Positions 2,035-11,226 of a stretch of DNA of 45,204 nucleotides are shown in pieces. The translations under genes and the position numbers were made by a program. Source of the DNA: Escherichia phage vB_EcoS_011D5. Position 1 is the first letter of the stretch. The number at the start of each line of letters is the position of its first letter. Below the pieces are notes generated by a model. The model saw nothing but the letters and a program-made list of their open reading frames with translations. It was not told where the DNA came from and made no database searches. The DNA lies in sequence record NC_073085.1. One strand, written 5' to 3'.

Positions 2035-4326
2035 TTATTTCCTGTACCTGTACATAATGTCGCCTTCCGCGGCAAGCGGGAAGCCTTTCGCCCAAATAGG
2101 CAGGTCGCACATCAGCGCGCATAGCTCCTCGGTCGTGTAATCGTCAGTATCCGGCACTTCGGTGATCAGTTCATCGTGTACGGACAGTACGATCTCATAT
2201 CCCGCAGCTTCAACGCCCGGCATGGACCATGCGAGGATATCGCGACACAGCGCCTGCACGATGTTTTCCGTGAGTTTTCCGCCGTAGGTGTACTGGGATC
2301 CCCACTGGCGCGTCGTCTGATTCTCACCCTGATATTTAATGCGGGTGCTGGTGCGTTTCTTGCCGGTATCTTCGTCGATCTCGGTCGTCACTGACAGCGC
2401 AATGCCTGGATAACTCATAATACGCCCCGACGGCAACTCAATTTTCAACCACCACCCCGCGGCGTTCGGGTCGTCGCGTTCCTCGTCGAAGGTTGGGTCA
2501 TGCTTCGCCTTCGTGCGGACTATCTTGAGCGCTTTCTTACCATCCGGGCGAACGTTCGCGCCAGCCCAGTACGCTTTGCCAGGATTGCGGATTGCACACA
2601 ACACCGCGTCCTCAAGCTCGGCCCAAAAGGCTACCGTCTTCGGGTGAGCCTCGCGCCACATGCGTTTAATCGCATCACACGTAAGCCATACGTTTTTCGG
2701 CAGTATGTAAGTCGGGCGCTCGTCCTTCTTGCCCGGCTTCGGCGGTCGCTTCGCTTCGTTAATGCGGGCATATTCATAACCACGTTTCGCCGCCGCCCAA
2801 ATGTGATCGGGGAATGTGCCCTTCATCACGTCAGCCATCGCATAAAGGTCGAGGCCCAGGTTTTTAGCGAACTGCAAGAACGCAGCCACGCCGCCGCCGT
2901 AGCCCAGGCCCAACTCACACGCCTTACCAATCTGGCGTAAGTCCTTGCGGTTGGCTTTAATGTATTCCGGGTCAAGGCCAAACATCTTACCGGCAGTTTC
3001 ACAATAAATATCGCGACCGGCCCTAAACACCATGAGCGCTGTTTTCTCGCCAGCGATCCAGGCAAGGCCGCGCCCTTCCACGTTGGAGTAGTCCGCAACG
3101 ACAAACTTCTTGCCCTTCGCCGGAATAATGCACCCGCGAACGGTCGAGGCCGTTAGCTTCGATATGTCATACGCCCAGTGTGCGGTCCCGCGTAACAGGG
3201 AGTTGATGCCGTTGGTGAGCATGTGCGACCGCACCCAAAAAGATATATCGCTCTCGCCCTCGCGGCGCTTAATCTTCCCTTCGTGGTCGTCGCTATACTC
3301 GCCACGCGCCAGGTTTTGCGGCTGGAAGCCTTTACCGGCCCAGCGTAGCGTGCGCTTTGCCCCACCATACTGAAGACAACCACGGCGGCGACCATCGGCG
3401 GACAGGCCATTTACGAGCGGATTGTACTTAGTCGATGCCGTTGATGACGCTCCGAGGCGCATCTCGATAAGCACTTTGCCTTCATCGGGGAAGTCTGGAT
3501 CTTCCAGCAGGTCGTTAAGCGTGGATTTCTGCGCGTTGTGGATTGTGAACGCAGGCGCGAGGTCACGCAGCGCTGGCAGGAAGTCATTGCCGGTCAGCTT
3601 ACCGCCGAAGCGCTCCCATGCTTCTTCCTTCAATTCTTCCTTATGCGCCTGTACCGCTTTGATCGCAGCGCGCGCCAGGTCGACGTCTACATAGAAGCCG
3701 CGGTCATTAATCAACTGGTCAATAAGCAGGATTTCGTCTTCCTTCGGCGTGTTACCCCAGTCCGGTATGCGCCAATAGACTTCACGCATCGCGACAATAT
3801 CCAGCGCAGCATAGCGCAGGAATTTAGCCCACTCCTCTGGGTGCGTCTCGCGCGTGTAGCGTCGGATTTTGTAGGTCCTAGGGGTAGGCTTACAGAATCG
3901 TTTAATCAGCGCCTTGCCTGCCTTATCCTTCGCGTGCTCTGCATCAACGCCCAGCACCTGGCACTGCATATCGAGGCTACCAGGCAACGCGTGTCGGAAG
4001 GCCATAACCATGGTGTCTTCGATCTGGCACACTGGCAAGTCAATACCCCACTTTTCGCGAATAACCAGGCGGTCAAACAGGAGGCCGTTAGCCATCACGA
4101 TTTTTGCTTTCTTGCGGGATACCTGGCGGAGCGCCTTGCGCAGTTCACGCGGCATTGTAGGGGATTCGGTGCAATCCCATGTCTGTACGCGGCCCTCGTC
4201 GATGGCGTAGGTGCAGATCATAATCTCGGTTGTCGGGTGCTCCGCGTAGGCGTATGCGCCCACTTTCTTCAGGTCTACCCCGCTAAATGTCTCGGTATCG
4301 AGAAACAGGCGTTCGAAGTCTTTCAT
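2035..4326 (-). CDS. Family A DNA polymerase with N-terminal 3'-5' exonuclease domain (T7 gp5-like)
   Basis: Exo I FLDTETFS; motif A VVADYSNVEGRGLAWIAGE; motif B RKDLRQIGKACELGLGYGGG; motif C VLSVHDELITEVP; start set at MKDFERLF (ATGA overlap with upstream small ORF). Confidence 0.9.
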   Translation of the reverse strand: MKDFERLFLDTETFSGVDLKKVGAYAYAEHPTTEIMICTYAIDEGRVQTWDCTESPTMPRELRKALRQVSRKKAKIVMANGLLFDRLVIREKWGIDLPVCQIEDTMVMAFRHALPGSLDMQCQVLGVDAEHAKDKAGKALIKRFCKPTPRTYKIRRYTRETHPEEWAKFLRYAALDIVAMREVYWRIPDWGNTPKEDEILLIDQLINDRGFYVDVDLARAAIKAVQAHKEELKEEAWERFGGKLTGNDFLPALRDLAPAFTIHNAQKSTLNDLLEDPDFPDEGKVLIEMRLGASSTASTKYNPLVNGLSADGRRRGCLQYGGAKRTLRWAGKGFQPQNLARGEYSDDHEGKIKRREGESDISFWVRSHMLTNGINSLLRGTAHWAYDISKLTASTVRGCIIPAKGKKFVVADYSNVEGRGLAWIAGEKTALMVFRAGRDIYCETAGKMFGLDPEYIKANRKDLRQIGKACELGLGYGGGVAAFLQFAKNLGLDLYAMADVMKGTFPDHIWAAAKRGYEYARINEAKRPPKPGKKDERPTYILPKNVWLTCDAIKRMWREAHPKTVAFWAELEDAVLCAIRNPGKAYWAGANVRPDGKKALKIVRTKAKHDPTFDEERDDPNAAGWWLKIELPSGRIMSYPGIALSVTTEIDEDTGKKRTSTRIKYQGENQTTRQWGSQYTYGGKLTENIVQALCRDILAWSMPGVEAAGYEIVLSVHDELITEVPDTDDYTTEELCALMCDLPIWAKGFPLAAEGDIMYRYRK

Positions 4327-4493
4327 TGCTGAATCCTCACTACGGCGTCGGCGCTGCCGATCATGGAGAAGATACCGTCGGAAAGGGTAATCTCCCCGCC
4401 GTTGTTGCGAATCTCGGCAACGATGAAATACTCGCCCAGCATTTTGGACCATACTCGCATTCCGACTTTTACTTCGCTGGCTTTAATACGCAT
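4323..4493 (-). CDS. Small hypothetical protein (~56 aa), translationally coupled to the polymerase
   Basis: Read by eye: MRIKASEVKVGMRVWSK...; RBS AGGA upstream; stop overlaps polymerase ATG. Coordinates approximate. Confidence 0.4.
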   Translation of the reverse strand: MRIKASEVKVGMRVWSKMLGEYFIVAEIRNNGGEITLSDGIFSMIGSADAVVRIQQ

Positions 4494-4507
4494 TTTTCAT
4501 TGTCCTA

Positions 4508-4533
4508 TTAAAAAGCCCGCATTAAGCGGGCTT
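4508..4533 (-). terminator. Intrinsic terminator/attenuator after SSB-like gene
   Basis: Hairpin AGCCCGC-atta-GCGGGCT followed by a T-run on the minus strand. Confidence 0.5.
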
Positions 4534-4551
4534 GAATAGTGGGCTTTGCCC

Positions 4552-5337
4552 TTAACGGCGGCGACGTTTACGTGGTGCTTCGTCTTCGTCGTCTTCGTCC
4601 TCATCTTCGTCATCGCGTGGCTTACGACGTTTACGAGGTTTCTCATCTTCGTCGTCTTCGTCGTCATCGCGGCGCTTGGACTTTTTGGACTTGCGCGGCT
4701 TGTCGTCTTCGTCATCGTCATCACGACGTTTTGACTTTTTGGACTTGCGCGGGCTTTCATCTTCGTCATCATCGCCCAGGTCTTCGTCGGAGCAAGAAGA
4801 ACCGCCACCGCCGAAGGATTCACCATCATCGCGGAAGCGAAGACCCAGCAATCCCGCACCGAGGCCTTTACCGTTGGTATTATTCCACGCCCAAATATCC
4901 AGGGACACGTTGCAATAACAACCGGAGTAGATCTCCTGGCCTTCGATCTCGTCGCCTTCTATGGTCAGACCTTGTTCCGTCTGCTTCTCGCCGAGTGACG
5001 TTTGAATGATCGGCTGTTTGAACGATTTGGCGTTGATGTACAACATGCCTTCGAATTCTTCGGTTACTTCGTCGCGCTCGTCACCGTCGCGAACTGCGCA
5101 TTCCTTAGAATCCTGAGCGTAGTGACGGTCCATCCACTTATCAGCATTCTTCTCGGATTTCAGCTTGTCGGTGAGCACTGCGCGCGCTGCCGCTTCCACT
5201 TTGTCCACCTGCGGATCTTCTTTATCAAGAAGAATCACTGCACGGTATGCCGGTTTTTGTCCATCCTGTTTAGGGGTATCACGTTCCCAGATTTTCAGGA
5301 AACATACGCGCACATTTTTCAGGTTGACTTTAGCCAT
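4552..5337 (-). CDS. Putative single-stranded DNA-binding protein with mixed-charge repetitive C-terminal tail
   Basis: N-terminus MAKVNLKNVRV...YRAVILLDKEDP resembles phage SSB N-termini; C-terminal tandem repeats DDDEDE..PRKSKKSKRR; RBS GAGGA. Confidence 0.5.
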   Translation of the reverse strand: MAKVNLKNVRVCFLKIWERDTPKQDGQKPAYRAVILLDKEDPQVDKVEAAARAVLTDKLKSEKNADKWMDRHYAQDSKECAVRDGDERDEVTEEFEGMLYINAKSFKQPIIQTSLGEKQTEQGLTIEGDEIEGQEIYSGCYCNVSLDIWAWNNTNGKGLGAGLLGLRFRDDGESFGGGGSSCSDEDLGDDDEDESPRKSKKSKRRDDDDEDDKPRKSKKSKRRDDDEDDEDEKPRKRRKPRDDEDEDEDDEDEAPRKRRRR

Positions 5338-5427
5338 TTTCCAATTCCTCATTTTCACATGTATCGGGGTTATTATGAGCCACCCCGTTCGGCTTGGTTG
5401 CTAATCTACTTGGTTGCACCTAAGCGG

Positions 5428-5670
5428 TCAAGCACTTTTATTAAAAAGATTTCTGGTCACGTAGTTGGTAGCGTTCTCGACCCAGCTTAACGGCGGTCGG
5501 TCGATGTTCTTCTCCACCCAGTCGACGGCAGCGTCACTATATCCGTCGTCAAGCCAGCGGGTCGGATGGCGAATCATCCACGCCACCATTAACACGCCCT
5601 GCACGCAATGCAGGATAAAGCCCAGCGCGCCGAGCAAAAACATCAATAAGATCGCAAATACTTTACTCAT
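5428..5670 (-). CDS. Small membrane protein (one TM helix)
   Basis: Hydrophobic stretch FAILLMFLLGALGFIL; start overlaps exonuclease stop. Confidence 0.5.
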   Translation of the reverse strand: MSKVFAILLMFLLGALGFILHCVQGVLMVAWMIRHPTRWLDDGYSDAAVDWVEKNIDRPPLSWVENATNYVTRNLFNKSA

Positions 5671-7093
5671 TGCTTAAGTCCTCGTCAGTGGCCTCCGACC
5701 ACGCAGGGCGCGGGTCGTCGATGGGTGCTAATACCGGTTTAGCCGGTGCGCGAGTGATTTTAGCACACAGCTTCGCCCACACTTTCGGTTTTTCGTCCTT
5801 CAGTACCTTCTCGGCATCGGTAGGGCTGAGCAATGTTTCTTTGTACATCACATCGCGCTTGATCCGGGCCTTCGTGAATATTTCAATCACTTCGCTCTCG
5901 TCCGCCCACTTCCGGATCCCTTCCTTACCGGCAACCATCTTGAGGCCCAGCGATTCGCCATCCCCCGCCATTACCGCTTTGAATACCGCGGACTCGATAG
6001 CTTTGATGTGCTGGCGCATTGCGTCCAGACCTTCATACGCCTTGCGCAGTTCCGCCGCGCTCATAGCGCCGGGGGCCGATTCCTTATTGCCACGCTTCGC
6101 ACGTCGGGCTGCCTTCCGGGCTTCGCGGGCCATATTGCGGTCGTGGTTGGCGCATTCTTCCTCTGTCGCAATACTCACGTCATCGCCCAGGTCTTCGTCG
6201 GTTGCCGTCGGTGGGGTCATCGTGTCGATTGCGGCCTTAGCGCGGGCACTACACTGATCCGCAAATCTGCACCACTGGCACGCATCGACGCTGGGCCGGA
6301 AGTCCGCGCGGGTGAGTCCCTTCTTGCCTCGGGAATACGCTTCCAGTGCGGCGATAGCGCGCTTGGATGCAAACTTCGCGAATATCTCCAGGGCTTCTAC
6401 CGAAATATCCCACTCCGACGCCCCACCGCAATACGGCTGGAAGATAACCAGGCGAACGGTCGTAATGTCGTACATGGTTTGCAGCTTGCGCAGCAGGCCT
6501 AGCGCGTACAACATAAGCTGTTTGTTTTCTTTTGCCTCGACCTTATGTCGCCCGGTCTTCAGGTCGCCAACAATCAGCATGTACGTGCCGTCGGTCTTCT
6601 TCATGACCATGACCATATCAGCAGTGCCGAACGTCTTAACCTTGTTGCCGTCGATCTCGAAGCCCGAGTGAAGGACACGGGTAAGATCGGCGCGCATCTC
6701 AAGCTGGACAAACTCCGCCACTTCGAGGAGCGGTCGCCAGTGGTCGATGTATGCATCGCACTGTTTCACCATATCATCATTGACCAGTACGCCGCCTTTC
6801 GGCGCTTTCGGGTGTGCCTTTACTGGCCCCTTTCCTTCGTTCTCGACGTAGCACCCTTTATACGTCTTCGCGGTTATTTTCTTCTCACCGGCGATAATGC
6901 GGTTTAGCAACACTTCAGATACGGTGTGCATACTCGTACCGTTAATCGCGGCTTGCCCGGATTCGTTCGGGATATCTTTTTCCACCACCAGGGCGGCAGG
7001 GCAACCCATCCATTTTTTAGCACCGGACGGTCCGAGTAATGAGTGTTCCGTATTACTACCGGATTGCGTTTTACGTTTTGGTTTAATCGCCAT
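5663..7093 (-). CDS. RecB/Cas4-family PD-(D/E)xK exonuclease with C-terminal Cys cluster
   Basis: N-terminal GPSGAKKWMGCPA; IVGDLKTG...QLMLYALGL (D/ExK and QxxxY); C-terminal CQWCRFADQC. Confidence 0.75.
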   Translation of the reverse strand: MAIKPKRKTQSGSNTEHSLLGPSGAKKWMGCPAALVVEKDIPNESGQAAINGTSMHTVSEVLLNRIIAGEKKITAKTYKGCYVENEGKGPVKAHPKAPKGGVLVNDDMVKQCDAYIDHWRPLLEVAEFVQLEMRADLTRVLHSGFEIDGNKVKTFGTADMVMVMKKTDGTYMLIVGDLKTGRHKVEAKENKQLMLYALGLLRKLQTMYDITTVRLVIFQPYCGGASEWDISVEALEIFAKFASKRAIAALEAYSRGKKGLTRADFRPSVDACQWCRFADQCSARAKAAIDTMTPPTATDEDLGDDVSIATEEECANHDRNMAREARKAARRAKRGNKESAPGAMSAAELRKAYEGLDAMRQHIKAIESAVFKAVMAGDGESLGLKMVAGKEGIRKWADESEVIEIFTKARIKRDVMYKETLLSPTDAEKVLKDEKPKVWAKLCAKITRAPAKPVLAPIDDPRPAWSEATDEDLSNE

Positions 7094-7281
7094 TATTCCA
7101 CCCTTGAAAACTGAGCAATGTAATATTCATGTTTAACACCGGCCCGCTTCGCGGCTTCGTTCATGGTAGCCGCCAAACCTCTGGCTTGAGTCCAGCAGCA
7201 ATTCCAGTTCTGATTCATAACGATTTCGGGTTGCTCATCGCCGGTAATACGGCAGCGAAATAAAACGAAAAATATAGCCAT
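7093..7281 (-). CDS. Hypothetical protein (62 aa)
   Basis: ORF with ATG; start directly follows stop of upstream gene (TAAATG). Confidence 0.4.
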   Translation of the reverse strand: MAIFFVLFRCRITGDEQPEIVMNQNWNCCWTQARGLAATMNEAAKRAGVKHEYYIAQFSRVE

Positions 7282-7533
7282 TTATTTTGTCTCCCAGCGG
7301 TCAATTGTTTTTGCTTCGGATGCAACGGCGAAGCGAACAAATTCCAGATTGGAATCCGCCCAAATATAAAAGTCGGGGTTAGTAAAAGTGGTGCGCTTAA
7401 TTTGCGCGGGTGTGTTGCGGCGTTTGTCTATTACGGCAACGCGGGACTGAAAATTGCCGATGCGTTCGAATAGCCAATAATATGGGCGCTGGTCGCGGGA
7501 GTCCACCGCCTCGATTAGCGTGAAACGTGCCAT
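7282..7533 (-). CDS. Hypothetical protein (83 aa)
   Basis: ORF-track, ATG start, operon context. Confidence 0.45.
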   Translation of the reverse strand: MARFTLIEAVDSRDQRPYYWLFERIGNFQSRVAVIDKRRNTPAQIKRTTFTNPDFYIWADSNLEFVRFAVASEAKTIDRWETK

Positions 7534-7544
7534 TGTCTCGTCCT

Positions 7545-7573
7545 CTAAAAAGAGGCCCGCAGATTAGCGGGCC
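7545..7573 (-). terminator. Intrinsic terminator-like hairpin
   Basis: GGCCCGC-agatta-GCGGGCC followed by a T-run on the minus strand. Confidence 0.45.
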
Positions 7574-7581
7574 GGATAATA

Positions 7582-7707
7582 TTAGTCTTCTCCGCCGAGT
7601 TGTTTATAAACTTCGTCCGGGTCGTCGCCTCTTTCTTCGCAGAAGGCGGTGAATGCCGCCCAGTTTTCTGCTATGAAATCGAGCGTGATTCTCATTTCAT
7701 AGTCCAT
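7582..7707 (-). CDS. Small acidic hypothetical protein (~41 aa)
   Basis: Read by eye: MDYEMRITLDFIAENWAAFTAFCEERGDDPDEVYKQLGGED; not in ORF track (<60 aa). Confidence 0.35.
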   Translation of the reverse strand: MDYEMRITLDFIAENWAAFTAFCEERGDDPDEVYKQLGGED

Positions 7708-7711
7708 GATA

Positions 7712-8221
7712 TTAGTCTTCCAGTTCGAAATAGGTTTCGACGATTTCTTTCAGATCTTTGTGGAAATCTTCCACGTCGTCATCTTCCAGCTTGGCGATTG
7801 ATTTGATCTCGAACGCTTCCAGCAGGTCGTCAAATTCGTCGTTCGCATCGTCATCATCACCGCCTGCGATAATCGCGGCATACTGTTTGATTTCGTCGCG
7901 CATCTCTGCCAGCGGGTCGGCATCTTTCTTACCTTTGCCTTTCGCTGGTGCTTTTTTACCCTTCGCCGGTTTTTCGTCTTCGGCTTCATCGTCGTCATCT
8001 TCTACGACTTCTTTTTTGGCCTTACCTTTCGCCGTGGCTTTTTTACCTTTCGCCGGTGCTTCGTCTTCAGCGTCGTCATCTTCTACGACTTCTTTTTTGG
8101 CCTTAGCTGGCTTTTTATCTTCCTGCTTACCAACGGCAGCGCCCACGGTTTCATAATGTTTTGCGATGATTTCCAGTGCTACTACGCCGCGAGTGATCAG
8201 GTTTACGATTTGCTCAAACAT
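7712..8221 (-). CDS. Acidic early protein with tandem KKEVVEDDD-AEDE-PAKGKKA-AKGK repeats; first gene of the leftward operon
   Basis: ORF-track 7712..8449 trimmed to MFEQIVNL; RBS GGAGA; ~84 bp tandem DNA repeat at ~7970-8140; acidic C-terminus DEFDDLLEAF...EDDDVEDF. Confidence 0.6.
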   Translation of the reverse strand: MFEQIVNLITRGVVALEIIAKHYETVGAAVGKQEDKKPAKAKKEVVEDDDAEDEAPAKGKKATAKGKAKKEVVEDDDDEAEDEKPAKGKKAPAKGKGKKDADPLAEMRDEIKQYAAIIAGGDDDDANDEFDDLLEAFEIKSIAKLEDDDVEDFHKDLKEIVETYFELED

Positions 8222-8456
8222 GGTGTATCTCCGATTGGTTAAGTTTAGGTGTCGACCATTAACTTCGTCGGTGGCCTTAACATAGTGCCCGGTTGCGCGT
8301 TCTCCCTTTCGGGTAGTGGACCGGGTTATATAATCACGGTTGGGAATCCTGACACTTCGATCCGGCCCCTGCGTTGCCCCTCTCCAGTTTGCTTCCTGCA
8401 TCCTGTCGACGAGGTGAATATTAGATTGGTTGCAGAAGGGAGTCAACAACTAATTT

Positions 8457-8961: not shown

Positions 8962-11226
8962 ATGAGCTTAATTAAATTCGCGGTAACACGACCCGCTAAA
9001 AAAGGCGAAAAAGCCAGGGCGGAAAACTTCCAGATGACCACCGATGAATTTTTCGAATTTATCAATGACGCGAAAGAAATCTCCTCGGTGCATATCAACA
9101 AGACGGAAGATAAAGCCGAGTATGCGCGCCGCAAGCGTAAGGCCGATGGCATCGTAGCTTATACCAGTGACGGCCTGCGCCGCAAGACCAGTGCGGTGGA
9201 CCGCTCGATCCTGTTCTTCGATATTGACCGCACCGACACTCGCACCCTACGCCGCTGCCGTAAGGCTTTCATCGACGCGGGGCTGGAGCACGTATTCCAC
9301 ACAACCACCGGCGACCGCCACCCGCTGAAAGGCGGCACGCGTTGCGCCCGTTTCCTGGTACTCACTGACAAGCCTGTACCGGCGGAAGACCTGGGCCGTG
9401 TCCAGTATGCGCTATTACACCAACTTGGCCTGTCAGATGTGGACTTCGACGATTGCACGAAAGACACAAACCGCCTGATGTACCTGCCGCACCAGCAGTC
9501 TGTCATTAAGTGTCACTACGGCAAACGTGCCCGCGTCCGTCGTCTGCTCCGCCTGGCGGATACGCTTGGCGTGGAGAAGGAAGAAGTACGCCGCGAGCTT
9601 ACCCAGGGCGACGACGCAGTGGCAGACGGCATTCTGGACTGGTGCTTCCAGGCAGGATTCGAGGAGTTATCTTCCGGTCGCGGTTATGAAGTGCCGTGCC
9701 CGAACGAACATCTGCACAGCGGCGAAGGGTCGACGGCTATCATGGTCAAGGATGGCGAGATCCGTTTCAAGTGTATGCACACCGGAAACGAGTGTTGCTC
9801 GGAGCTAAATAGACACCAGCACCTGGCGCTACGTCTTATCGGGATACCGGACCACCTGAACGTCGAGCCGCACAACATGTCACGTAAGCAAATCGCCGCC
9901 ATCCTCCCAGGGCTGGACGACGAGGAAGTCGAATCCTTATATGAACATATTGTTGATGCGGTTGGCGACGGCGAAGAATACGGCGTGTGCACCGATGCGG
10001 ATCTGGATAACGAGCCGGTCGCACTATTCAGTAAGCACGACCCGATCATCGAAGGGCTGATTAACTTTAAATCGACCTGGTATATGGCGGGCGAGTCGAA
10101 TATAGGTAAGTCCTTCTACGTGCTGGGGCAGATGGGCGCGGTTGCCGCGGGTATCCCGTTTGGCGGTGCGAAGGTCGTCCAGTCTCATTGCTTCTATTTC
10201 GACGCGGAAGGTGGCGAAGCCTCCAACCAGCGTAAAGAAGCATTGCAGATTAAATATGAGCACGACCTGGACAAGCTGCACATTATAGACCTGCAGTCCC
10301 GCGGCTGGGATATCACCAGCAAGTCCGGTTTGCGCGAAGTTATCAGTTTTATCAACCGCACCGCTAACGGCGAACCGGTTGGCCTGGTGGCGTTCGACTC
10401 ACTCAACCAGACTGTTGCGCTGCGGTCCGCCGATGCTAAACCGTTTGACGAGAACAACGCCAGCGATATGGGTGAAGTGGTCAAAGCGCTGAAAGCCATT
10501 GCGGAAAACACAGGTGGCAGTGCGGGCGTCATCCACCACCCGGCGAAGGGTGCAAACGGCAGCAGATCTCCCCGTGGGTCCGGCGCACTGCATGGCGCTG
10601 TCGATTCTGCGTTCTTCCTGGAACAGCCGGACGACAACCAGCCGGGACAACTCAACCTGTATCACGAAAAATCACGTAACGGCATCAAGCAAGCGCCGCG
10701 TGGCTTCGTCCTGCTCAAGTGCAAGGTGAAGGTGGATCTCCGCAAGTCAGAAGCGTTCGCGTCGCACCAGTCCACCAGCACCGGGCCAGACTTCGGCGAC
10801 GTTGTTGCCGGTTGGGACGTCAAACCAATTGCATCCACGCCACGCGATGAGACTCTGTACCTCGTACCGGTCGCCCTGGCACCGTTCGCTATAGAACAGG
10901 CGAAGGCGGCGGGCAAAGCCGCAGTTAAGGAAGAGAACACCGCCGGTCCGCGCAACGAAAAAGAGAAAGTGCTTTATGCGGCCCTGGAAAAACTGATGGA
11001 AGATAACCCGAGCCACACTGGATTCAGTAAATCGGCAATTGTCCGCCAGGCGGGACTCGCGAAGGGAGGCACTTCGACGAAGGCAATCGACGATATGGTC
11101 GAGCGCGGCGTGATTGGTTTTTATACAGACCCGCACACCGGGGCCATCTATGGGTCGTCGAATTTGGTCATCAAATCGGATATTCCCATAACGCTTTCGG
11201 CGACCGATGATGACCTGAAAGATTAA
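8962..11226 (+). CDS. Bifunctional primase/helicase (AEP-type prim-pol N-domain, zinc-binding linker, RecA/DnaB-like ATPase)
   Basis: ILFFDIDR...FHTTTGDRH (AEP motifs); CPNEHLHS...CMHTGNECC; Walker A GESNIGKS; Walker B VAFDSLNQ. Confidence 0.8.
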   Translation: MSLIKFAVTRPAKKGEKARAENFQMTTDEFFEFINDAKEISSVHINKTEDKAEYARRKRKADGIVAYTSDGLRRKTSAVDRSILFFDIDRTDTRTLRRCRKAFIDAGLEHVFHTTTGDRHPLKGGTRCARFLVLTDKPVPAEDLGRVQYALLHQLGLSDVDFDDCTKDTNRLMYLPHQQSVIKCHYGKRARVRRLLRLADTLGVEKEEVRRELTQGDDAVADGILDWCFQAGFEELSSGRGYEVPCPNEHLHSGEGSTAIMVKDGEIRFKCMHTGNECCSELNRHQHLALRLIGIPDHLNVEPHNMSRKQIAAILPGLDDEEVESLYEHIVDAVGDGEEYGVCTDADLDNEPVALFSKHDPIIEGLINFKSTWYMAGESNIGKSFYVLGQMGAVAAGIPFGGAKVVQSHCFYFDAEGGEASNQRKEALQIKYEHDLDKLHIIDLQSRGWDITSKSGLREVISFINRTANGEPVGLVAFDSLNQTVALRSADAKPFDENNASDMGEVVKALKAIAENTGGSAGVIHHPAKGANGSRSPRGSGALHGAVDSAFFLEQPDDNQPGQLNLYHEKSRNGIKQAPRGFVLLKCKVKVDLRKSEAFASHQSTSTGPDFGDVVAGWDVKPIASTPRDETLYLVPVALAPFAIEQAKAAGKAAVKEENTAGPRNEKEKVLYAALEKLMEDNPSHTGFSKSAIVRQAGLAKGGTSTKAIDDMVERGVIGFYTDPHTGAIYGSSNLVIKSDIPITLSATDDDLKD

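What the first reader, a model, noticed from the sequence alone, without database searches (positions are those of the whole stretch)
4552..5337. SSB-like protein with a repetitive alternating acidic/basic C-terminal tail
The N-terminal ~190 residues resemble a phage SSB/recombinase-partner fold. The C-terminal ~80 residues are not the purely acidic tail expected of SSBs but three tandem units alternating acidic runs with basic PRKSKKSKRR / PRKRRKPR segments, encoded by a ~60 nt tandem repeat at ~4560-4800. The SSB assignment itself is only moderately supported.
Basis: partly seen in the sequence, partly recalled or inferred. Interest (0 to 1): 0.45.

Follow-up and report, generated by a model that had tools for sequence, protein, structure and literature searches.

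The report
Phage SSB with alternating-charge repeat tail

Summary
Window 4552-5337 (minus strand) encodes a 261-aa protein. Residues 1-178 are a T7 gp2.5 / Enc34 ORF6-type OB-fold SSB (Pfam PF10991 E=6e-31; the model matches PDB 5odl, 4klk and 1je5). The SSB assignment is therefore strong, not moderate. The window is a complete Dhillonvirus genome, and orthologues in SECphi4/SECphi18 are published SSBs that trigger Retron-Eco8.

The tail (residues 185-261) has four units, not three. Each unit is an acidic run, then x-Pro, then a basic run, and the tail ends in RRRR. The charge segregation is far from chance. Variable sites sit mostly at third codon positions, so the tail is translated and under selection. 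Copy number ranges from 2 to 4 units among Dhillonviruses through in-frame indels.

Only about 8% of family representatives have basic blocks in the tail. The architecture nevertheless recurs in several lineages, with 1 to more than 10 units.

A new point is that the peptide [ST]-D-[DE]-D-L at the start of the tail also ends the helicase-primase and the DUF2800 exonuclease. Such peptides co-vary with the SSB tail across genomes. A neighbouring small protein carries similar charge repeats.

What the tail does (electrostatic regulation, or bridging around a docking motif) is inferred. I found no published description of it. It is a new variant of a known kind.

The parts
4552..5337 (-). Complete SSB gene (261 codons plus stop). 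An in-frame ATG at 5352 would add 5 residues.
   Evidence: ORF list and sequence. Same coordinates annotated in NC_073086.1. Pfam PF10991 E=6e-31 and PHROG 112 E=4e-52.
5346..5350 (-). Shine-Dalgarno-like GAGGA, 8 nt before the ATG at 5337.
   Evidence: Read directly from the sequence.
4804..5337 (-). OB-fold ssDNA-binding domain, residues 1-178 (T7 gp2.5 / Enc34 ORF6 type).
   Evidence: AF2 block-mean pLDDT above 90 for residues 1-170. Foldseek hits 4klk, 5odl, 5odj, 4jg2 and 1je5 with E of 1e-12 to 5e-06. W149, K104 and F13 align with the Enc34 DNA contacts Trp150, Arg112 and Tyr30.
4768..4791 (-). Proximal tail peptide S-D-E-D-L-G-D-D (residues 183-190). It is acidic-hydrophobic and docking-like, and corresponds to the conserved D-x-F-D-D-L of the family.
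   Evidence: Family consensus. AF2 short helix at 184-187. The same peptide occurs in the exonuclease and the helicase-primase.
4723..4785 (-). Charge unit 1, residues 185-205: EDLGDDDEDES-P-RKSKKSKRR.
   Evidence: Present in all 12 Dhillonvirus-type sequences compared.
4669..4722 (-). Charge unit 2, residues 206-223: DDDDEDD-KP-RKSKKSKRR. With unit 3 it forms the variable middle, which loses about one unit in HK578, JL1 and L005 and about two in EP23.
   Evidence: 54-nt DNA repeat with unit 1, 81% identity.
4615..4668 (-). Charge unit 3, residues 224-241: DDDEDDEDE-KP-RKRRKPR. Missing or fused in JL1, EP23, SECphi4 and L005.
4555..4614 (-). Charge unit 4 and basic C-terminus, residues 242-261: DDEDEDEDDEDE-AP-RKRRRR*.
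   Evidence: The APRKRRRR end is invariant in the Dhillonvirus-type sequences. A single equivalent unit (EDEAPRRERRRR*) ends the SSBs of Jerseyvirus and Kagunavirus.
4510..4533 (-). Terminator-like hairpin AAGCCCGC-TTAAT-GCGGGCTT followed by TTT, 19 nt after the stop codon.
   Evidence: The 57-nt stretch folds at -24.6 kcal/mol, z=-4.9 against shuffles. The consensus scan did not call it because the T-run is short. A terminator is annotated at the same place in Salmonella phage Shemara.
5663..7093 (-). DUF2800 / PD-(D/E)XK exonuclease, the upstream neighbour. It carries two copies of the SSB peptide: ATDEDLGDD (6179-6205) and the C-terminal ATDEDLSNE* (5666-5692).
   Evidence: Pfam PF10926 E=2e-66. 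Motifs.
11200..11223 (+). C-terminal peptide ATDDDLKD* of the replicative helicase-primase (gene 8962-11226).
   Evidence: Translation. PHROG 3228 helicase-primase and Pfam AAA_25. Motif enrichment.
7712..8221 (-). Small 169-aa protein of unknown function (phrog_3127) in the same operon. It has its own acidic/x-Pro/Lys-rich repeats and a DEFDDLL peptide.
   Evidence: Translation. PHROG hit. Copy-number variation among homologues. AF2 model.
2035..4326 (-). Family-A DNA polymerase, the downstream neighbour. It is the candidate receptor of the shared peptides, by analogy with T7 only.
   Evidence: Pfam PF00476 and PHROG 17. Annotation in NC_073086.1. No direct evidence for binding.

Best explanation
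The gene encodes the replication/recombination SSB of a Dhillonvirus. It is a T7 gp2.5 / Enc34 ORF6-type OB-fold protein that coats ssDNA and works with the neighbouring exonuclease, helicase-primase and polymerase.

Its C-terminal region has two parts.
1. A short acidic-hydrophobic peptide (SDEDLGDD, residues 183-190). The helicase-primase and the exonuclease of the same phage carry the same peptide at their C-termini. I infer that it is a docking motif for a common receptor: either the DNA polymerase, as in T7, or the concave sheet of a neighbouring SSB, as in the Enc34 crystals.
2. A disordered, net-acidic extension of four units, each an acidic run, then x-Pro, then a basic run, ending in RRRR. 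It arose by unit duplication. It is translated and under purifying selection, and it changes copy number by in-frame unit gain and loss.

I infer that the acidic blocks keep the usual tail role, as a DNA mimic that gates the OB cleft and enforces ssDNA over dsDNA preference. I infer that the basic blocks add contacts with DNA or with acidic blocks of other molecules. That would promote SSB-SSB or SSB-partner association, and possibly strand annealing.

Shown here: identity, fold, translation, selection, copy-number variation, distribution in the family, and motif sharing and co-variation. Inferred: what the motif binds and what the charge blocks do.
For: **Identity and fold**
- establish the family and the fold. 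DNA-contact residues are partly conserved.
- The genomic module is primase-helicase, small protein, DUF2800, SSB, PolA, SNF2. It is found in the window and in eight divergent metagenomic loci.
- Orthologues in SECphi4/18 are Retron-Eco8 triggers, and the escape mutations read here map to the OB domain (T21P, F95L, F106V, N152H).

**Tail is real and selected**
- Charge segregation is 10 sd above shuffles.
- Variable sites by codon position are 7/3/46 in the tail and 13/7/107 in the OB domain.
- In 50 of 51 Dhillonvirus records the matched CDS length is a multiple of 3, ranging 723-798 nt.
- There are 2 to 4 units, changed by in-frame indels of about one or two units, and the first and last units are always kept.

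**Recurrence in the family**
- Only 12 of 144 unbiased representatives have a basic block.
- The same grammar recurs in Eiauvirus, Guernseyvirinae and a Loktanella phage, and in many metagenomic clades at 25-35% OB identity, with a median unit of 17 aa. In 50 non-redundant charge-repeat tails, Pro lies between the last acidic and the first basic residue at 85 of 207 acidic-to-basic junctions, against 8 of 200 basic-to-acidic junctions, and 98% are net negative.

**Shared peptide**
- [ST]D[DE]DL occurs 4 times in the phage proteome against 0.06 expected, in 0 of 2000 shuffles, and only in the SSB, the exonuclease (twice) and the helicase-primase.
- Partner C-termini match the SSB tail of their own genome better than foreign tails: exonuclease P=0.002, small protein P=0.009, helicase P=0.05. 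Examples: in L029 three of the four proteins end in DDLLG and the exonuclease in DDLLS; in L028 the ends are NEDNGI and EQDNGI; in L025 they are ASDEDLE, ATDEDLE and ATDDDLE.

**Precedents**
- The T7 gp4 C-terminal peptide and the gp2.5 tail are placed on the same basic patch of gp5 (PMC12339929).
- The proximal tails of Enc34 ORF6, two DUF2815 proteins and gp2.5 pack into a neighbour's beta-sheet groove in crystals. Removing the Enc34 tail allows dsDNA binding (PMC5686142).
Against: - There is no biochemical or structural evidence for any function of the charge units or for the receptor of the shared peptide.
- Viable phages carry 2, 3 or 4 units, so the exact number is not critical.
- Three database entries (Ioannina, vB_EcoS-22664B1, P0009) have frameshifted tails. 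In Ioannina the original frame and stop are still intact downstream, which points to a sequencing error or a very recent change.
- The co-variation test rests on only 8-9 loci. Acid-rich C-termini are common, so part of the signal could be compositional.
- The SSB ends in RRRR rather than an acidic or aromatic tip, so the T7-style tip-in-pocket contact cannot be copied literally.
- For T7, the tail is dispensable for Retron-Eco8 activation, so the known defence phenotype says nothing about the tail.
Confidence: 0.6

Rival explanations
1. The charge repeats are a functionally neutral low-complexity appendage. Slippage or unequal recombination in a GA-rich coding tract made them, and they are tolerated because SSB tails are disordered. 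Only the OB domain and perhaps the proximal peptide matter.
For: - Copy number varies from 2 to 4 among viable phages, and there are DNA-level direct repeats of 81-86% identity.
- Three records have frameshifted tails.
- All defence-escape mutations read here lie in the OB domain.
Against: - The third-codon-position bias is as strong as in the OB domain: 46 of 56 variable sites, with 40 synonymous codon variants against 11 amino-acid variants.
- The first and last units are invariant across the Dhillonvirus-type sequences compared.
- The same acidic / x-Pro / basic grammar is kept in lineages with only 25-35% OB identity and different unit sequences.
- 98% of the non-redundant charge-repeat tails stay net negative.
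- The Ioannina frameshift looks like an error.
Confidence: 0.15
2. The tail is mainly a scaffold for a replication compartment. Blocks of opposite charge in the SSB and in the neighbouring small protein (7712-8221) drive multivalent electrostatic self-association (complex coacervation) with ssDNA. This concentrates the helicase-primase, exonuclease and polymerase through the shared peptide.
For: - Charge segregation is very strong.
- A second protein of the same operon has the same kind of repeats, also with variable copy number.
- Its counterparts sit at the same position in divergent modules, and several resemble the SSB units of their own genome. An example is L024, with KRSRDDDD in both proteins.
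- Partner proteins share the SSB peptide.
Against: - No experiment supports this and no sequence-based test for condensation is available here.
- The small-protein family has K/E-rich linkers even where the SSB tail is ordinary (L029, L030), so the two features are not strictly coupled.
- Two units suffice in EP23.
Confidence: 0.15
3. The basic blocks are an extra nucleic-acid-binding module, like histone H1 tails or arginine-rich peptides. They would give the protein dsDNA or RNA binding or strand-annealing activity, making it primarily the annealase partner of the DUF2800 exonuclease rather than a replication SSB.
For: - PHROG 112 is annotated as SSB and annealing protein.
- The gene lies next to a PD-(D/E)XK exonuclease.
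- Some relatives have H1-like K/A/P-rich or RG-rich blocks.
- Enc34 ORF6 gains dsDNA binding when its acidic tail is removed.
Against: - Each basic block is flanked and outnumbered by acidic residues (net -8), which should mask DNA binding in cis.
- The same exonuclease-SSB pairing occurs with ordinary acidic tails, so the pairing does not need the basic blocks.
Confidence: 0.1

Closest known systems
Enterobacter/Hafnia phage Enc34 ORF6 (Pfam PF10991, formerly DUF2815; PDB 5odj, 5odk, 5odl)
   Same: - Same Pfam family and the same fold (Foldseek E=2e-12, target TM-score 0.77).
- The Enc34-like Proteus phage P16-2532 has the same neighbours, a Cas4-like exonuclease upstream and a family-A polymerase downstream.
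- Disordered, net-acidic C-terminal region.
- Trp150 and Arg112 are conserved as W149 and K104.
   Different: - The Enc34 tail is about 29 residues and purely acidic (16 D/E). From the published cloning primer I read its end as ...WDEDEDEV.
- The tail here is 77 residues with four basic blocks and ends in RRRR.
- Only about 22% sequence identity.
- Tyr156, Tyr37 and Lys46 of Enc34 are not matched in the pairwise alignment.
Bacteriophage T7 gp2.5 (PDB 1je5) together with the gp4 helicase-primase C-terminal tail
   Same: - OB-fold SSB with annealing activity, and a structural match (E=5e-07).
- An acidic tail that regulates DNA binding and contacts the polymerase.
- In T7 the helicase-primase C-terminus and the SSB tail use the same basic patch on the polymerase. 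This parallels the shared [ST]D[DE]DL peptide found here.
- Like gp2.5, the Dhillonvirus orthologue triggers Retron-Eco8.
   Different: - About 10-13% identity.
- The gp2.5 tail has no basic blocks and ends in an essential aromatic residue (…EDGDF).
- Here the shared peptide is internal in the SSB and the C-terminus is basic.
- Here the exonuclease carries the peptide as well.
- The polymerase is too divergent to map the T7 basic patch.
E. coli SSB: OB domain, intrinsically disordered linker and acidic tip (DDDIPF)
   Same: A three-part logic of OB core, repetitive disordered linker and short acidic-hydrophobic interaction peptide. In other PF10991 clades (L023, L024, L026, L027, L028) the charge repeats sit exactly where a linker would, between the OB domain and a retained acidic-hydrophobic tip. 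Some family members even end in DDIPF-like tips. The linker's role in cooperativity and condensation is from my own knowledge of the E. coli SSB literature.
   Different: - Different OB family (PF00436), and E. coli SSB is a homotetramer.
- Its linker is Gly/Gln/Pro-rich and nearly uncharged.
- In the window protein the order is reversed: peptide first, repeats after.
Eukaryotic nucleolar proteins with alternating acidic tracts and lysine blocks (Nopp140, nucleolin, NPM1 partners). Comparison from my own knowledge, not tested.
   Same: Alternating blocks of opposite charge in a disordered region of a nucleic-acid-associated protein. In those systems such blocks drive multivalent electrostatic assembly.
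   Different: No homology. A bacterial virus has no nucleolus. The units here are shorter, with an invariant Pro just before the basic run in all four units (x-Pro-Arg-Lys). Function is untested.

Membership tests
Pfam PF10991 (Enc34_ssDNA-bd / DUF2815), T7-type SSBs | Sequence matches the family HMM above the curated threshold. | tested here: met
   107.9 bits against a cut-off of 26, E=6e-31, residues 3-193 covering profile positions 2-172 of 176. PHROG 112 E=4e-52.
Pfam PF10991 (Enc34_ssDNA-bd / DUF2815), T7-type SSBs | A single OB-fold domain with the gp2.5/Enc34 elaborations (extended beta-sheet, capping helices). | tested here: met
   AF2 block-mean pLDDT above 90 for residues 1-170. The best PDB matches are only 4klk, 5odl/5odj/5odk, 4jg2 and 1je5 (E of 2e-12 to 5e-06). 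The next hits have E above 0.2.
Pfam PF10991 (Enc34_ssDNA-bd / DUF2815), T7-type SSBs | Conserved ssDNA-contacting residues (Enc34 Trp150, Tyr156, Tyr37, Tyr30, Arg112, Lys46). | tested here: inconclusive
   In the phmmer alignment W149 aligns with Trp150, K104 with Arg112 and F13 with Tyr30. Tyr156, Tyr37 and Lys46 align with N155, T21 and A30, with W151, W17 and K28 nearby. Escape mutations in orthologues (T21P, F106V, N152H) fall at or next to these positions.
Pfam PF10991 (Enc34_ssDNA-bd / DUF2815), T7-type SSBs | A short, purely acidic C-terminal tail ending in a hydrophobic or aromatic residue. | tested here: not met
   The tail is 77 aa and net -8 but has 28 K/R in four blocks and ends in RKRRRR. 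132 of 144 representatives have no basic block, and the median tail is 24 aa. An acidic-hydrophobic peptide (SDEDL) exists, but it is internal.
Pfam PF10991 (Enc34_ssDNA-bd / DUF2815), T7-type SSBs | Preferential binding to ssDNA. | not testable with these tools
   Indirect evidence only. The SECphi4 orthologue is sufficient to trigger Retron-Eco8, as T7 gp2.5 is.
Pfam PF10991 (Enc34_ssDNA-bd / DUF2815), T7-type SSBs | Location in a phage replication module next to a DUF2800 nuclease and a family-A polymerase. | tested here: met
   Window genes 5663-7093 (PF10926), 4552-5337 and 2035-4326 (PF00476). The same order occurs in 8 metagenomic loci and in cultured relatives.
Replisome proteins sharing an SSB-like C-terminal docking peptide (T7 gp4/gp2.5 paradigm) | The same short acidic-hydrophobic peptide on the SSB and on other replisome proteins of the same genome. 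| tested here: met
   [ST]D[DE]DL occurs 4 times against 0.06 expected, only in the SSB, the exonuclease and the helicase-primase. Same-genome against cross-genome permutation tests give P=0.002, 0.009 and 0.05.
Replisome proteins sharing an SSB-like C-terminal docking peptide (T7 gp4/gp2.5 paradigm) | The peptides bind one common receptor site (in T7, the front basic patch of the polymerase). | not testable with these tools
   The polymerase is too divergent from T7 gp5 for residue mapping. No complex prediction tool was available.

The most novel reading that the evidence does not exclude
A whole family of phage replication modules (primase-helicase, small phrog_3127-like protein, DUF2800 exonuclease, PF10991 SSB) may be wired together by a genome-specific electrostatic code. 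One part of the code is a co-evolving acidic-hydrophobic C-terminal peptide carried by up to four proteins. The other is alternating-charge disordered repeats of variable copy number in the SSB and the small protein. Together they would assemble a condensate-like replication/recombination hub on ssDNA. The Dhillonvirus SSB would be the extreme case, with the peptide internalised and the tail ending in a basic block.
Probability: 0.2. Interest if true: 0.65.

Novelty: new variant of a known kind. Interest (0 to 1): 0.45.

Why it matters
SSB tails are the hubs through which replication, recombination and repair proteins are recruited, and all textbook cases are acidic. Here a large, easily cultured group of coliphages and Salmonella phages (Dhillonvirus, Guernseyvirinae, Eiauvirus) uses a tail that ends in a basic block, or alternates acidic and basic blocks. 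Copy number varies naturally from one to more than ten units.

This offers a natural series for testing how charge patterning in a disordered tail tunes DNA binding, cooperativity, annealing and partner recruitment.

The shared, co-varying C-terminal peptides suggest a simple, testable wiring diagram for a replication module whose parts (DUF2800, DUF2815, phrog_3127) are mostly uncharacterised.

The same SSB is a trigger of Retron-Eco8, and escape mutations read here from what appears to be the ShosTA part of the published mutant table also fall in it, so tail-dependent assembly could bear on how such defences sense it.

The gene's identity itself is ordinary and already annotated.

Tried and rejected
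- **Tail-only protein search.** Searching the 5.8-billion-protein database with residues 183-261 gave no hit. HMMER's composition correction removes such sequences, so I could not ask which other protein families carry this tail.
- **Genome-collection scan.** The host range of prophage copies was therefore not surveyed.
- **Viral-contig scan.** It returned only 8 loci, six of them Dhillonvirus-type.
- **Literature.** Full-text searches for SSB with 'alternating' and 'acidic and basic', and for polyampholyte with SSB and phage, found nothing relevant. The 22 papers that mention DUF2815 were screened by title and abstract only, apart from the Enc34 paper, and none appears to deal with such a tail.
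- **Overlapping ORFs in the tail region** (4497-4859 minus; 4539-5009, 4546-4734 and 4676-4918 plus). Rejected as by-products of GAN/AAR codon runs, because substitutions follow the SSB frame.
- **An RNA element in the region.** No Rfam match.
- **Frameshifted tails as evidence that the tail is dispensable.** In Ioannina the original frame and stop are intact after the shift, so this is more likely an error.
- **Mapping a T7-like basic patch on the window's polymerase.** It aligns with solved family-A polymerases over only about 85-110 residues, and T7 gp5 is not among the hits.
- **Identifying the small phrog_3127 protein by fold.** Its C-terminal three-helix bundle has no PDB match with E below 0.001.
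- **The NJ tree of OB domains.** It gives about 20 gains or losses of the charge-repeat tail against about 80 at random. It is too weak at 25-35% identity to say how many origins there were.
Full report
**What is there**

Window 4552-5337 (minus strand) is a 261-codon gene. Its ATG at 5337 is preceded by GAGGA, and a strong hairpin (4510-4533) follows the stop.

The window is a complete 45.2-kb Dhillonvirus genome. The SSB region is 96.6% identical to Escherichia phage vB_EcoS_Sponge, and 159 phage records match it. The window has the same length and gene coordinates as NC_073086.1 (vB_EcoS_L-h 1M), from which it differs by substitutions only in the 6.8-kb stretch compared. A neighbouring protein is 100% identical to one from phage vB_EcoS_011D5 on a contig of 45,204 bases.

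**The N-terminal domain**

Residues 3-193 match Pfam PF10991 (Enc34 ssDNA-binding protein, formerly DUF2815) at E=6e-31. The whole protein matches PHROG 112, 'Gp2.5-like ssDNA binding protein and ssDNA annealing protein', at E=4e-52. Sequence search of the PDB finds the two DUF2815 structures and Enc34 ORF6.

An AlphaFold model built on 75 homologues has block-mean pLDDT above 90 for residues 1-170 and about 50 for the tail. Its only significant PDB matches are 4klk, 5odl/5odj/5odk, 4jg2 and T7 gp2.5 1je5.

Three of the six DNA-contacting residues described for Enc34 ORF6 align with like residues: Trp150 with W149, Arg112 with K104, and Tyr30 with F13. The other three have aromatic or basic residues within two to four positions.

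The gene lies between a DUF2800 PD-(D/E)XK exonuclease and a family-A polymerase. In the sister phages SECphi4, SECphi6 and SECphi18 the orthologue was identified as the SSB. It triggers Retron-Eco8 when expressed alone. The escape mutations I read in the supplementary table all map to the OB domain, although which defence system's block that part belongs to was not confirmed.

**The tail**

Residues 185-261 contain 36 acidic and 28 basic residues, a net charge of -8, with 83% of residues charged. They form four units:
- EDLGDDDEDES-P-RKSKKSKRR
- DDDDEDD-KP-RKSKKSKRR
- DDDEDDEDE-KP-RKRRKPR
- DDEDEDEDDEDE-AP-RKRRRR

The charge sign changes 7 times, the minimum possible for 8 blocks, against 31.5 in shuffles. 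The segregation statistic is 10 sd above shuffles, reached in 0 of 5000. The DNA shows the corresponding repeats.

The tail is translated in this frame and is under purifying selection. Among 12 Dhillonvirus-type sequences, variable sites fall 7/3/46 on codon positions 1/2/3 in the tail and 13/7/107 in the OB domain. In 50 of 51 records that cover the whole gene, the matched length is a multiple of three, from 723 to 798 nt.

Copy number varies through in-frame indels of about one or two units. EP23 has two basic blocks; HK578, JL1 and SECphi4 have three; the window, SECphi18 and Kente have four. The first unit and the terminal APRKRRRR are always kept.

Three database entries have frameshifted tails. 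In Ioannina the original frame and stop remain intact downstream, so an error or a very recent change is likely.

**How unusual it is**

I searched with the OB domain alone against 1.84 billion cluster representatives, so the tail could not bias the result. This found 1910 relatives at E up to 0.001. Of the 144 best with a complete domain, 132 have no basic block in the tail. The median tail is 24 aa, typically acidic and ending in F, A, I, L or V. Enc34 ORF6 itself has a purely acidic tail.

Yet the charge-repeat architecture is not unique to this phage. In cultured phages it appears as follows:
- Jerseyvirus and Kagunavirus: one unit (…DDEDEAPRRERRRR*).
- Cornellvirus: two units.
- Klebsiella phage 37P2: three units.
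- Eiauvirus: three to four units.
- Loktanella phage pCB2051-A: a long series of EPRGRGRGRDEDEDE units.

It also appears in many metagenomic proteins at 25-35% OB identity, with up to 14 blocks. Across 50 non-redundant charge-repeat tails the median unit is 17 aa. Pro lies between the last acidic and the first basic residue at 85 of 207 acidic-to-basic junctions, against 8 of 200 basic-to-acidic junctions. This count misses K-P-R junctions such as units 2 and 3 here. 98% of these tails stay net negative.

A rough tree shows the trait strongly clustered, with about 20 changes against about 80 at random. It cannot resolve how many origins there were.

I found no paper describing such tails.

**A shared peptide**

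The tail begins with SDEDLGDD, and AlphaFold places a short helix at residues 184-187. The same peptide occurs inside the exonuclease (ATDEDLGDD) and at its C-terminus (ATDEDLSNE*). It also ends the helicase-primase (ATDDDLKD*). In the phage's proteome [ST]D[DE]DL occurs four times against 0.06 expected (0 of 2000 shuffles), and only in these three proteins.

The pattern holds and co-varies in other genomes:
- **L025:** helicase ASDEDLE*, exonuclease ATDEDLE*, SSB ATDDDLE.
- **L029:** helicase, small protein and SSB end in DDLLG, and the exonuclease ends in DDLLS.
- **L028:** SSB …NEDNGI* and small protein …EQDNGI*.
- **L023:** SSB …DDDDVV* and small protein …EEDDVV*.
- **SE2, K1G, eiAU, 37P2:** the exonuclease ends in …DDLEA*, …EDLE*, …DDDLVD* and …DEDLS* respectively, each matching its own SSB.

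Permutation tests of own-genome against foreign-genome matches give P=0.002 for the exonuclease, 0.009 for the small protein and 0.05 for the helicase, on 8-9 loci.

Two architectures follow. In the Dhillonvirus/Guernseyvirinae/Eiauvirus clade the repeats and a basic end were added after the peptide. In other clades the repeats sit between the OB domain and a retained acidic-hydrophobic tip, like a linker.

**How it most likely works**

The following is established for relatives:
- In T7 the acidic tail of gp2.5 competes with ssDNA for the OB cleft and contacts the polymerase's front basic patch. In the cited study, a peptide mimicking the gp4 C-terminus served as the template for placing the gp2.5 tail on that patch.
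- In Enc34 ORF6, removing the tail lets the protein bind dsDNA. In crystals, the proximal tails of four T7-type SSBs lie in a neighbour's concave sheet.

By inference, the SDEDL peptide is the docking element shared with the helicase-primase and the exonuclease. Its receptor would be the polymerase or the SSB core. The acidic blocks keep the gating role. The basic blocks add contacts with DNA or with acidic blocks of other molecules, which would favour assembly on ssDNA and perhaps annealing. None of these steps has been tested.

**Rivals**

- A neutral slippage product. This is disfavoured by selection and by recurrence in distant lineages.
- A condensate scaffold acting together with the neighbouring small protein. 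This is possible and is the most novel reading.
- A mainly nucleic-acid-binding or annealing module.

**The neighbouring small protein**

Gene 7712-8221 (169 aa, phrog_3127, unannotated everywhere) has an N-terminal helix and a disordered middle made of EDEAPAKGKK… units. The copy number of these units varies among Dhillonviruses, giving proteins of 115-179 aa. A confidently modelled C-terminal three-helix bundle contains DEFDDLL. It has no structural match.

Small proteins with the same layout sit at the same position in the divergent modules. Whether they are homologous was not tested. Several echo the SSB's units or tip.

**Verdict**

The gene is an already-annotated kind of protein, with a real, selected and apparently undescribed tail variant. 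It also carries a testable hint of peptide-based wiring of the replication module. Interest is moderate.

Noticed in passing
window 7712-8221 (minus strand): A 169-aa protein of unknown function (phrog_3127) in the same operon has its own acidic / x-Pro / Lys-rich repeats (EDEAPAKGKKATAKGKAKKEVVEDDDDEAEDEKPAKGKKAPAKGKGKKD). Their copy number varies among Dhillonviruses, giving proteins of 115-179 aa. It also has a conserved C-terminal three-helix bundle containing DEFDDLL. Small proteins with the same layout sit upstream of DUF2800 in divergent modules. There is no PDB fold match.
   Followed up: partly
window 5666-5692, 6179-6205 (minus strand) and 11200-11223 (plus strand); loci L023-L030: The exonuclease and the helicase-primase end in the same [AS]TD[DE]DL peptide that opens the SSB tail. 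In other genomes up to four module proteins share a genome-specific C-terminal tip, for example DDLLG/S in L029 and DNGI in L028.
   Followed up: partly
window 4323-4493 (minus strand): A 56-aa ORF (phrog_10102) lies between the SSB and the polymerase and overlaps the polymerase start. [quoted passage not shown] I did not establish which defence system it relates to.
   Followed up: no
whole window compared with NC_073086.1 (locus L001): The window has exactly the length (45,204) and gene coordinates of vB_EcoS_L-h 1M. In the 6.8-kb stretch compared there are no indels. About 1.2 kb is identical (roughly window 7141-8337), and all 263 substitutions fall in the rest, from about 7140 downward. 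This looks like a recombinant mosaic between sibling phages. One protein is 100% identical to phage vB_EcoS_011D5.
   Followed up: partly
proteins P0188, P0197, P0198, P0214, P0233, P0249, P0250, P0260: Several PF10991 SSBs end in DDIPF, DDVPF, DNDIPF or DDLPF, essentially the bacterial SSB C-terminal tip (DDDIPF). This suggests that these phage SSBs plug into the host's SSB-interaction network.
   Followed up: no
locus L022 (Loktanella phage pCB2051-A) and L028 (P0112): The tails are built of many EP(K)RGRGRGRD-DEDE units. The basic block is RG-rich, like eukaryotic RGG boxes, rather than K/R-rich.
   Followed up: no
window 4510-4533 (minus strand): A strong hairpin with a short T-run sits 19 nt after the SSB stop (the 57-nt stretch folds at -24.6 kcal/mol, z=-4.9). 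It is a possible attenuating terminator between the SSB and the polymerase genes. It was missed by the consensus scan but is annotated at the same place in phage Shemara.
   Followed up: partly
Erwinia jumbo phages pEa_SNUABM_16, _22 and _28: 34-38 nt of the tail-coding DNA match hypothetical genes of 265-kb Erwinia phages at 95-97% identity. This is probably just another acidic-run coding tract.
   Followed up: no
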